DNA of 64,000 nt, taken from Escherichia coli O127:H6 str. E2348/69 (GTDB lineage: Bacteria; Pseudomonadota; Gammaproteobacteria; Enterobacterales; Enterobacteriaceae). Location of the stretch: NCBI RefSeq assembly GCF_000026545.1, contig NC_011601.1. One strand, 5' to 3'. The position numbers were made by a program. Shown piece by piece: positions 1,773 to 4,700 of the stretch (the first letter of the stretch is position 1; each line of letters begins with the position of its first letter).

Positions 1773-4700
1773 TTAAGCGCGCGCTTCAACTCACCCCTGC
1801 AATATTTTGTCCATCACGCGCCCCGGCAGCAGGCGCTTAAGCACCATTACCGCCCAGGTCACCAGCGTCACCGGATAGCGCATCTTCGGCTTCTCGCTAA
1901 TAAAAGCATGGCGCACTTTGTCGACCACCGCTTCCGGTCCCAACGTAAAGCGGGCGGCGATGCCAGGATTTTCGACTGGTTTATCACTTTGCGTCTGATT
2001 GACGTTGTCGGTGAAGCGAGTACGAATGGGACCAGGTTCGATCAGGCTGACTTTAATTCCGCTGTGGCGCAGCTCCATGCGCAGTGCGTCTGACCACGCC
2101 TCCAGCGCATATTTACTGGCCGCGTAAGCGCCACGACCCGGTGTGGAGATTAATCCCATCACCGATGAGGTCATCACAATACGCCCTTCACCGTGCGGCA
2201 ACATCGCGGGTAACAGGCGCATGGTGAGCTGGTGTGCGCCGAAAAAGTTGGCGGAAAACTGCTGTTCCATCTGCGCACGGCTGATGGTGGAAAGGGGGCC
2301 ATACATGCCGAATCCGGCATTGTTATAGATCCCATACAGACAATTATCGGTCAGGGCGATCACTTCGTCGGCTGCGCGATCAACACTTTCTGGTGAATCC
2401 AGATCGATCAACACGCCGGTAAATCCCATGCTGTTCATGCGCTCAACATCATCCGGTTTCCGGCAACCTGCCAGCACATGAAAACCCTGGCGTTTTAATT
2501 CGAGCGCGCTTTCCAGGCCAATACCACTGGAACATCCGGTAATTAAGACCGATTTTTGCATAACTTTACCTGTCAGGATCTCCGTTGCTTTATGAGTCAT
2601 GATTTACTAAAGGCTGCAACTGCTTCGCCATCCAGTCGGCAATAAACGGCTGGGCGTCGCGGTTGGGATGAATACCGTCATCCTGCATCCATTGTGGCTT
2701 GAGGTAGACCTCTTCCATAAAAAAGGGCAGCAGCGGAACATCAAACTCTTTGGCGAGTTTGGGGTAAATGGCGCTAAAGGCTTCATTATAACGGCGACCA
2801 TAGTTTGCAGGCAGACGTATTTGCATTAACAATGGTTCAGCGTTGGCGGCTTTGACATCCTGCAAAATCTGGCGCAGCGTTTGCTCGGTTTGCTGTGGCT
2901 GAAAACCACGCAAACCGTCATTGCCGCCCAGTTCAACCAGCACCCAGCGCGGCTGATGCTGTTTCAGCAGAGCCGGAAGGCGCGCCAGCCCTTGTTGCGA
3001 GGTGTCGCCGCTGATGCTGGCATTGATTACCGACGTTTTACTCTGCCACTTATCATTCAACAAGGCAGGCCAGGCCGCGCTGGCAGACATTCGATACCCG
3101 GCGCTCAGGCTATCACCCAGAATCAATAACGTGTCCGCTGCGGCGGCACGGAAGGTTAACAGGACCAGGAACAGGAAGGGCAAATGCCAGCGGAAAACAT
3201 TGTTGAAGTTCATCATCTTAAGAAGTCCGTCGGTCAGGGGGAGCATGAACTCTCCATCCTCACCGGAGTTGAGCTGGTTGTCAAACGTGGTGAGACCATT
3301 GCACTGGTGGGCGAGTCGGGATCGGGTAAGTCAACCTTGCTGGCGATCCTCGCAGGGCTGGATGACGGCAGCAGTGGCGAAGTGAGTCTGGTGGGACAAC
3401 CGCTACATAATATGGACGAAGAAGCGCGGGCAAAGTTGCGCGCGAAGCACGTAGGCTTTGTTTTTCAGTCATTTATGTTAATTCCTACCCTTAACGCGCT
3501 GGAAAACGTCGAGCTTCCGGCGCTGCTGCGCGGTGAGAGTAGCGCAGAAAGTCGTAACGGGGCGAAAGCGTTGCTCGAACAGTTAGGGCTGGGTAAACGT
3601 CTTGATCATCTTCCGGCACAGCTTTCTGGCGGCGAACAGCAACGAGTGGCGCTGGCGCGAGCCTTTAATGGTCGACCTGATGTGCTGTTTGCCGACGAGC
3701 CCACCGGCAACCTTGACCGCCAGACCGGCGATAAAATTGCCGACCTGCTGTTTTCCCTCAACCGTGAGCATGGCACCACGTTGATTATGGTGACCCACGA
3801 CCTGCAACTGGCGGCACGCTGCGACCGCTGCTTACGGCTGGTGAACGGGCAGTTGCAGGAGGAAGTATGATTGCACGTTGGTTCTGGCGCGAATGGCGTT
3901 CGCCGTCGCTATTAATTGTCTGGCTGGCGCTAAGCCTGGCGGTGGCCTGCGTGCTGGCGCTGGGCAATATCAGCGATCGCATGGAGAAGGGCTTAAGCCA
4001 GCAAAGCCGGGAGTTTATGGCGGGCGATCGGGCGTTGCGCAGTTCGCGCGAAGTGCCGCAAGCATGGCTGGAGGAAGCGCAAAAGCGCGGCCTGAAAGTC
4101 GGCAAGCAGCTGACTTTCGCCACCATGACCTTTGCAGGCGACACGCCGCAACTGGCGAACGTCAAAGCGGTGGATGATATCTACCCGATGTATGGCGAGC
4201 TACAAACCAATCCCCCTGGCCTGAAACCGCAGGCGGGCAGCGTATTGCTGGCCCCACGCCTGATGGCACTGCTTAACCTGAAAACGGGCGACACCATTGA
4301 CGTGGGCGATGCCACCTTGCGGATTGCCGGAGAAGTGATTCAGGAACCGGATTCCGGTTTTAACCCCTTCCAGATGGCTCCGCGTCTGATGATGAATCTG
4401 GCGGATGTCGATAAAACCGGAGCCGTGCAGCCGGGGAGTCGGGTCACCTGGCGCTATAAATTCGGCGGCAGCGAGAACCAGCTCGACGGCTATGAGAAAT
4501 GGTTGTTACCCCAGCTTAAACCTGAACAACGCTGGTACGGTCTGGAACAGGACGAAGGCGCGCTGGGGCGATCGATAGAACGTTCGCAACAGTTCCTGCT
4601 GCTTTCGGCGCTTCTGACCTTGCTGCTGGCGGTGGCGGCGGTTGCGGTGGCGATGAATCATTACTGTCGCAGTCGCTACGACTTGGTGGCGATCCTCAAG

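What the first reader, a model, noticed from the sequence alone, without database searches (positions are those of the whole stretch)
3184..3216. Divergent tesA and ybbA coding regions appear to overlap at their 5' ends
With the starts that match my recollection of the two proteins, the first codons of ybbA (plus strand, 3184) and tesA (minus strand, 3216) overlap by about 33 bp. Both promoters would then lie inside the partner's coding sequence.
Basis: inference. Interest (0 to 1): 0.2.

Follow-up and report, generated by a model that had tools for sequence, protein, structure and literature searches.

The report
Head-to-head overlap of tesA and ybbA
Two E. coli genes that face away from each other, tesA and ybbA, really do share their first 30-33 bases on opposite strands and each has its promoter inside the other, but this is already annotated and published, so it is a rare but known arrangement.

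Summary
ybbA (+) starts at ATG 3184, its only workable start. tesA (-) starts at ATG 3216 (K-12 reference) or ATG 3213 (RefSeq/PGAP). The coding regions therefore overlap head-to-head by 33 or 30 bp, with codons exactly in register.

In all 80 Enterobacteriaceae/Erwiniaceae loci examined, ATG 3184 and ATG 3213 are kept. ATG 3216 is lost in 18 of the 80 loci, so the conserved overlap is 30 bp. The rival starts, TTG 3183 and ATG 3246, are not conserved. The overlapped codons are the most frozen synonymous stretch in both genes.

A conserved TTGACA-17-GAGGAT promoter lies inside ybbA codons 25-34. A published TSS map places the tesA start at window 3248, inside ybbA. Only weak ybbA TSSs are reported, and all lie inside tesA.

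None of this is new. The reference genome annotates the overlap. A 2025 PLoS Biology paper on the YbbAP-TesA complex mentions it. A 2025 NAR paper lists tesA-ybbA as a divergent excludon. Whether the overlap regulates anything is untested. Interest is low.

The parts
3184..3213 (.). Conserved 30-bp head-to-head dual-coding overlap (33 bp, to 3216, if the first of the two tesA ATGs is used, as in the K-12 reference)
   Evidence: ORFs. Annotation. Nearly invariant DNA across 74 sequences. Lowest synonymous-site entropy in both genes.
3184..3870 (+). ybbA CDS, ABC transporter ATP-binding subunit, 228 aa
   Evidence: RefSeq annotation. Identical over residues 1-227 to PDB 9GE6/7/8 YbbA chains.
2590..3216 (-). 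tesA CDS (208 aa from ATG 3216; 207 aa from the conserved ATG 3213). Signal peptide codons span 3216..3139 and the mature protein starts at Ala27 (3138).
   Evidence: Annotation. PDB TesA chains begin at residue 27.
3173..3179 (+). Shine-Dalgarno-like AGGAAGG for ybbA, 4 nt before the ATG, embedded in TesA signal-peptide codons Phe14-Leu15
   Evidence: Sequence. ACAGGAA (3172-3178) is nearly invariant in 74 sequences.
3279..3284 (-). tesA promoter -35 hexamer TTGACA, inside ybbA codons 32-34
   Evidence: Invariant in 74 of 74 sequences with a 17-nt spacer to the -10. Contained in the promoter sequence published for the tesA TSS.
3256..3261 (-). tesA promoter -10 hexamer GAGGAT (AAGGAT in most other genera), inside ybbA codons 25-26
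3248..3248 (-). Published tesA transcription start site (K-12 U00096.2 519021, 45 reads). The 5'UTR is 32 nt to ATG 3216 and 35 nt to ATG 3213. It lies in ybbA codon 22.
   Evidence: Kim et al. 2012 supplement, mapped onto the window by sequence.
3029..3029 (+). Weak published ybbA TSS candidate (U00096.2 518802, 2 reads, 155-nt 5'UTR), inside tesA. Other weak candidates lie at 2797 (2 reads) and 2842 (Cappable-seq RRS 2.45).

Best explanation
This is a genuine, evolutionarily fixed head-to-head overlap of two real protein-coding genes. ybbA starts at ATG 3184. tesA starts at the conserved ATG 3213, and in E. coli possibly also at ATG 3216. Thirty base pairs therefore encode YbbA residues 1-10 on one strand, including the start of the first beta-strand of the ABC domain. 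The other strand encodes the n-region of the TesA signal peptide (MNFNNVFRWH).

With no intergenic DNA, the promoters face each other from inside the partner genes. The tesA promoter (TTGACA-17-GAGGAT, TSS 3248) sits in ybbA codons 22-34. The ybbA ribosome-binding site sits in TesA signal-peptide codons, and the weak ybbA promoters lie further inside tesA. The two mRNAs are therefore complementary over both translation-initiation regions, at least 65 nt and about 220 nt if the TSS at 3029 is used.

Shown here: the ORFs, the start-codon conservation, the frozen synonymous sites, the conserved promoter and the published TSSs. Inferred: that this face-to-face arrangement causes transcriptional interference and/or antisense pairing (an excludon) that tunes the ratio of TesA to its membrane partner YbbAP. 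The overlap probably arose by 5' extension in the Enterobacterales from an ancestral pair that was already nearly abutting.
For: - ORFs and forced ybbA start. Relatives of known structure align from YbbA residue about 5-10.
- Reference and PGAP annotations give 33 and 30 bp of overlap.
- Across 74 gap-free sequences, ybbA ATG is kept in 74/74, tesA ATG 3213 in 74/74, ATG 3216 in 60/74, TTG 3183 in 59/74 and ATG 3246 in 46/74. The 7 loci with indels keep the same overlap.
- Third-position entropy is 0.16 bit in ybbA codons 1-10 against 1.20 in codons 31-215. It is 0.15 bit in tesA codons 1-10 against 1.04 in codons 26-195. Each is the lowest 10-codon window in its gene.
- The YbbA His10 codon is always CAT and never CAC, whereas the His21 codon varies freely.
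- A conserved promoter was found in 74/74 sequences. It coincides with the published tesA TSS and promoter sequence.
- Published ybbA TSSs all lie inside tesA.
- tesA-ybbA is listed among the 16 divergent excludons of MG1655.
- YbbAP and TesA form a physical complex, and the operon overlap is noted in print.
- More distant relatives keep the divergent adjacency with spacing of +52, +25, 0, -2, -8 and -33.
Against: - No direct experimental mapping of either translation start was found. TesA's N-terminus is removed with the signal peptide, so the initiating codon is inferred from conservation.
- Conservation of the tesA-frame codons is confounded with YbbA's own protein constraint and with RBS or 5'UTR constraints.
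- tesA has no good Shine-Dalgarno sequence before either ATG (sequence).
- ybbA TSS support is very weak (2 reads each; Cappable-seq RRS 1.5-2.5), and no conserved sigma-70-like ybbA promoter was found.
- A regulatory role is not demonstrated. Mutually exclusive expression is hard to reconcile with the two products forming one complex.
Confidence: 0.88

Rival explanations
1. Annotation artefact. tesA really starts at the downstream TTG (3183..3181), giving a 197-aa precursor that abuts ybbA without overlapping. The upstream ATGs would then be incidental antisense readings of YbbA His codons.
For: Several database entries and the Klebsiella annotation KPN_00472 (594 nt) use the 197-aa form. TTG 3183 exists in E. 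coli. Neither ATG has a strong SD. Conservation of 3184-3213 could partly reflect YbbA and 5'UTR constraints.
Against: In the 15 of 74 related sequences where the codon at 3183-3181 is not TTG, only 2 keep a canonical start there (GTG); the other 13 read CTG, TGG, TTA, TTT, TAC or TAT. In contrast, ATG 3213 is invariant, and the corresponding YbbA His codon never takes its synonymous CAC form. A TTG start would leave a signal peptide with no charged n-region (MPFLFLVLLTF...), whereas the ATG start provides Arg in MNFNNVFRWH. The mapped TSS gives a normal 32-35 nt leader to the ATGs.
Confidence: 0.05
2. The overlap is real but selectively neutral in function. It would be a frozen accident of start-codon drift in a gene pair that was already abutting, with no regulatory consequence beyond constraining the sequence.
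For: Distant relatives show a continuum of spacing (+52 to -8) with the same gene order, as expected from drift of start codons. ybbA transcription is very low in published maps, so little antisense interaction may occur. No experiment shows regulation.
Against: Divergent overlaps are strongly avoided: 2 of 663 overlapping pairs in E. coli. Yet this one is kept unchanged in all 80 loci sampled from Enterobacteriaceae and Erwiniaceae and in a further 70%-identity relative (L084). RNA-seq-based analysis classes the pair as an excludon in at least 50% of 58 transcriptomes. None of this proves function.
Confidence: 0.4
3. tesA is translated from the far upstream ATG 3246, giving a 218-aa precursor and a 63-bp overlap.
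For: It is the first start codon of the ORF, and a GGAG lies 5 nt upstream. Some database proteins are 218 aa long.
Against: Only 46 of 74 sequences keep this ATG. The mapped TSS at 3248 leaves the GGAG outside the mRNA and the ATG 2 nt from the 5' end. The extension adds an acidic, non-signal-like segment ahead of the signal peptide.
Confidence: 0.03

Closest known systems
The annotated tesA (b0494) / ybbA (b0495) overlap of E. coli K-12 MG1655
   Same: The same genes, same starts and same 33-bp overlap (NC_000913.3 519733..519765). The PLoS Biology 2025 YbbAP-TesA paper states that the tesA-ybbO and ybbA-ybbP operons partially overlap.
   Different: Nothing essential. The window is another E. 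coli strain with 98.5% identity. This analysis adds that the conserved start is the second ATG (30 bp) and that the overlap is fixed in all 80 Enterobacteriaceae and Erwiniaceae loci sampled and in one more distant (70%-identity) relative.
Divergent excludons (overlapping 5' transcripts of divergent neighbours; ExcludonFinder map of E. coli)
   Same: tesA-ybbA is one of the 16 divergent excludons listed for MG1655. TSS data show that the 5' ends of the transcripts overlap.
   Different: In most excludons only the UTRs overlap, whereas here the coding sequences do too. Mutually exclusive expression or RNase III processing has not been shown for this pair.
Head-to-head (divergent) overlapping gene pairs in prokaryotes
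   Same: 5' ends overlap on opposite strands. The class is thought to arise by 5' extension to an upstream start codon.
   Different: This class is the rarest, with 2 of 663 overlapping adjacent pairs in the E. coli genome analysed by Huvet and Stumpf. The present overlap is a multiple of three and in exact antisense register.
Face-to-face promoter pairs causing transcriptional interference (general concept, from background knowledge)
   Same: A stronger promoter (tesA, 45 reads) fires towards and across a weaker opposing transcription unit (ybbA, 2 reads).
   Different: Interference has not been measured here. The resemblance is architectural only.

Membership tests
Divergent (head-to-head) overlapping protein-coding gene pair | Two genes on opposite strands whose 5' coding ends share nucleotides | tested here: met
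   ybbA 3184.. (+) and tesA ..3213/3216 (-). Annotated.
Divergent (head-to-head) overlapping protein-coding gene pair | Both genes encode real proteins | tested here: met
   YbbA and TesA match solved structures 9GE6-9GE8 and 1IVN. The complex is described in PMC12646458.
Divergent (head-to-head) overlapping protein-coding gene pair | The start codons that create the overlap are the ones used | tested here: inconclusive
   Comparative support is strong: ATG 3184 and ATG 3213 are invariant and the alternatives are not conserved. The ybbA start is forced. No direct initiation-site experiment was found.
Divergent excludon | Transcripts from the two divergent genes overlap at their 5' ends | tested here: met
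   The published tesA TSS at window 3248 lies inside ybbA, and the published ybbA TSSs lie inside tesA. The pair is listed by ExcludonFinder.
Divergent excludon | Overlap causes reciprocal (mutually exclusive) expression or RNase III-dependent processing | not testable with these tools
   No expression or dsRNA data specific to this pair were accessible. The ExcludonFinder supplements are not held.
YbbAP-TesA type VII ABC transporter / lipid hydrolase locus | Adjacent divergent tesA and ybbA-ybbP genes encoding the interacting proteins | tested here: met
   Gene order cnoX-ybbO-tesA / ybbA-ybbP. The same ABC-FtsX pair lies next to tesA in distant relatives.
Sec-type signal peptide (TesA residues 1-26) | Charged n-region, hydrophobic core, AXA-type cleavage site, and absence from the mature protein | tested here: met
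   The sequence is MMNFNNVFRWH-LPFLFLVLLTF-RAAA|AD. All PDB TesA chains start at Ala27. No signal-peptide predictor was run.

The most novel reading that the evidence does not exclude
The frozen 30-bp overlap, together with the tesA promoter embedded in ybbA, may be a selected regulatory module. Face-to-face transcription and complementary 5' mRNA ends, which cover both ribosome-binding sites, could set the ratio of the periplasmic hydrolase TesA to its low-abundance membrane partner YbbAP. They could alternatively make the two respond reciprocally to some signal. On this reading, a signal-peptide n-region and the first strand of an ABC domain have co-evolved on opposite strands to preserve the module.
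Probability: 0.3. Interest if true: 0.4.

Novelty: already known. Interest (0 to 1): 0.15.

Why it matters
The finding matters little as a discovery. The overlap is in the reference annotation and is mentioned in two 2025 papers.

It is still a clean textbook case of a very rare class, with only 2 divergent overlaps among 663 overlapping pairs in E. coli. It links two genes whose products form one complex.

It has practical consequences:
- Any mutation, deletion or tag at the 5' end of either gene also hits the other gene's start, RBS or promoter. The widely used leaderless 'tesA constructs and tesA or ybbA knockouts are examples.
- Annotation pipelines disagree on the tesA start, giving products of 197, 207, 208 or 218 aa.
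- Synonymous-site conservation in ybbA codons 1-34 reflects overlapping signals, not YbbA function.

Tried and rejected
- The default promoter scan of 2900-3500 found nothing, because the tesA -10 matches only 3 of 6 positions. A relaxed, conservation-filtered scan found it. The same scan found no conserved ybbA promoter.
- The Cappable-seq supplement is stored for the + strand only. It shows no + strand TSS within 340 nt upstream of ybbA and could not be used for tesA.
- The ExcludonFinder supplements are not held.
- Thomason 2015 and Meydan 2019 (Ribo-RET) are not held.
- The supplements of the eLife 2021 and Mol Microbiol 2014 papers do not mention either gene.
- A literature search for tesA start-codon or signal-peptide work gave nothing decisive.
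- No inverted repeat or operator-like element was found in 3100-3320.
- TTG 3183 and ATG 3246 were rejected as tesA starts for lack of conservation. A downstream ybbA start was rejected because none exists before Walker A.
- Organism names for the distant loci L085-L091 could not be determined with the tools and are not claimed.

Full report
**What is there**

The window is E. coli chromosome. Positions 2590-3870 are 100% identical to strain MCJCHV-1 and 98.5% identical to K-12, and the locus is present in 5418 of 5426 complete E. coli genomes.

On the + strand, an ORF runs from ATG 3184 to 3870 (228 aa, MPAENIVEVHHLKKSVGQG...). It is followed by ybbP at 3867, joined through an ATGA overlap.

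On the - strand, an ORF runs from 3246 down to 2590, with in-frame ATGs at 3246, 3216 and 3213 (MLPLTDGLLK-M-MNFNNVFRWHLPFLF...).

RefSeq names the genes cnoX-ybbO-tesA on one strand and ybbA-ybbP on the other.

**The observation**

NC_000913.3 annotates the same thing: tesA 519139..519765 (-) and ybbA 519733..520419 (+). PGAP-annotated genomes start tesA at the second ATG, window 3213, which gives 30 bp.

The two reading frames are in exact antisense register:
- The ybbA ATG is read as TesA His11 (CAT).
- The tesA ATG-ATG is read as YbbA His10-His11.
- Each gene's wobble position faces the other's first codon position.

**Which starts are real**

For ybbA there is no choice. An in-frame TAA lies at 3157, and no start codon lies between it and 3184. 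The next canonical in-frame start is GTG at codon 42, immediately before the Walker A motif. Solved relatives (LolD, MacB, MJ0796) align with YbbA from residue about 5-10 to within the first 8 residues of their own chains. The N-terminal beta-strand is therefore needed. A good SD (AGGAAGG, 3173-3179) precedes the ATG.

For tesA I compared 80 loci, one per species, from Enterobacteriaceae and Erwiniaceae.
- The distance between the TesA GDSLSAGY motif and the YbbA Walker A motif is exactly 193 nt in 73 of the 80 loci.
- Counts among the 74 gap-free sequences (73 loci plus the window):

| Candidate start | Kept in |
|---|---|
| ybbA ATG 3184 | 74/74 |
| tesA ATG 3213 | 74/74 |
| tesA ATG 3216 | 60/74 (ACG in 13, ATA in 1) |
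| TTG 3183 (non-overlapping alternative) | 59/74 (CTG, TGG, GTG, TTA, TTT, TAC or TAT elsewhere) |
| ATG 3246 | 46/74 |

- The seven loci with indels keep the same overlap. In six of them the indel lies in the hydrophobic core of the TesA signal peptide. The seventh, L024, has a 1-nt insertion in a C-run inside ybbA.

The conserved tesA start is therefore 3213, and the conserved overlap is 30 bp. E. coli has a second adjacent ATG that extends it to 33 bp.

One detail is telling. The YbbA His10 codon is always CAT and never the synonymous CAC, whereas the His21 codon varies freely (CAT, CAC, CAG, CAA).

**Consequences for sequence evolution**

Third-codon-position entropy across these taxa:

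| Gene | Codons 1-10 | Rest of gene | Rank of codons 1-10 |
|---|---|---|---|
| ybbA | 0.16 bit | 1.20 (codons 31-215) | lowest of 206 ten-codon windows |
| tesA | 0.15 bit | 1.04 (codons 26-195) | lowest of 186 ten-codon windows |

ATGCCAGCGGAA (3184-3195) is completely invariant. The n-region of the TesA signal peptide (MNFNNVFRWH) is, unusually for a signal peptide, almost invariant at the protein level. All solved TesA chains start at Ala27. The overlap therefore encodes only cleaved signal-peptide residues on the tesA side.

**Promoters**

A second frozen block lies in ybbA codons 24-34. Read on the - strand, it is a perfect -35 TTGACA (3284..3279), a 17-nt spacer and a -10 of GAGGAT or AAGGAT (3261..3256). 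This arrangement is present in 74 of 74 sequences.

The genome-wide TSS map of Kim et al. 2012 (PMC3415461, supplement) lists a tesA TSS at U00096.2 519021 (-) with 45 reads and a 32-nt 5'UTR. The promoter sequence they give contains exactly this TTGACA...GAGGAT. It maps to window 3248, inside ybbA codon 22.

For ybbA, the same table lists only two weak TSSs of 2 reads each:
- 155 nt upstream (window 3029).
- 387 nt upstream (window 2797).

Cappable-seq lists weak + strand TSSs at window 2842, 2615 and 2395, and none closer. All but the last, which is in ybbO, are inside tesA.

For ybbA it is supported only weakly, although no other location is possible within 340 nt. The two mRNAs must be complementary across both translation-initiation regions.

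**Wider distribution**

| Relative | Identity to TesA | Spacing between ABC gene and tesA |
|---|---|---|
| L084 | 70% | -33 bp, with the same promoter |
| L087/L088 | 52% | +52 |
| L090 | 42% | +25 |
| L089 | 46% | 0 |
| L085 | 54% | -2 (CATG) |
| L091 | 47% | -8 |

The more distant relatives keep the divergent ABC-ATPase/FtsX-permease pair next to tesA. The pairing with essentially no intergenic DNA is old. The 30-bp overlap looks like an extension specific to Enterobacterales. The starts in the distant loci are gene-caller predictions that I checked only for ORF consistency.

**What is known already**

- The PLoS Biology 2025 paper on the YbbAP-TesA cryo-EM structure shows that the products form one complex. 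[quoted passage not shown]
- ExcludonFinder (NAR 2025) lists tesA-ybbA among 16 divergent excludons found in at least 50% of 58 MG1655 transcriptomes.
- Huvet and Stumpf (2014) counted only 2 divergent overlaps among 663 overlapping adjacent pairs in E. coli. The class is rare, but the instance is annotated.

**Mechanism**

Shown:
- A dual-coding 30-33 bp segment.
- The ybbA RBS inside tesA.
- The tesA promoter and TSS inside ybbA.
- Overlapping 5' transcripts.

Inferred:
- Face-to-face transcription and/or antisense pairing modulates expression, probably keeping ybbAP low relative to tesA.

This is plausible but untested. It sits oddly with the fact that the proteins work together. A neutral frozen-accident reading remains a serious rival for the functional part.

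**Verdict**

The finding is already known and of low interest.

Noticed in passing
window 2590-2600: The tesA 3' end and the annotated ybbO start (ATG 2600) overlap co-directionally by 11 bp. A downstream Met14 (MQKSVLITG..., a typical short-chain dehydrogenase N-terminus) would remove this overlap, so the ybbO start may deserve checking.
   Followed up: no
window 3867-3870: ybbA and ybbP overlap by the common 4-bp ATGA motif, consistent with translational coupling of the two transporter subunits.
   Followed up: no
window 3244-3256: The in-frame ATG 3246 upstream of tesA has a GGAG 5 nt upstream and looks like a good start. However, the mapped TSS (3248) leaves the GGAG outside the mRNA and puts the ATG 2 nt from the 5' end. 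Only 46 of 74 taxa keep it.
   Followed up: yes
window 3253-3285: Synonymous sites of ybbA codons 24-34 are nearly frozen across genera because they carry the tesA promoter (TTGACA-17-GAGGAT). This is an example of a promoter constraining a coding sequence.
   Followed up: yes
L024 (Citrobacter amalonaticus assembly), about 1160-1180: There is a one-base insertion in a C-run within the ybbA N-terminal codons, which would frameshift ybbA. It is probably a homopolymer assembly error rather than a pseudogene.
   Followed up: partly
L085-L091 (distant TesA relatives): The divergent tesA / ABC-ATPase / FtsX-permease arrangement persists at 42-54% TesA identity with almost no intergenic DNA (+52, +25, 0, -2, -8). 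Promoters embedded in the partner gene may therefore be a general property of this gene pair.
   Followed up: partly
database entries P0070, P0077 and others; Klebsiella KPN_00472: Public annotations of TesA disagree on the start, giving 194-197, 204, 207, 208 and 218 aa products. The short forms use the non-conserved TTG/GTG just downstream of the overlap.
   Followed up: partly
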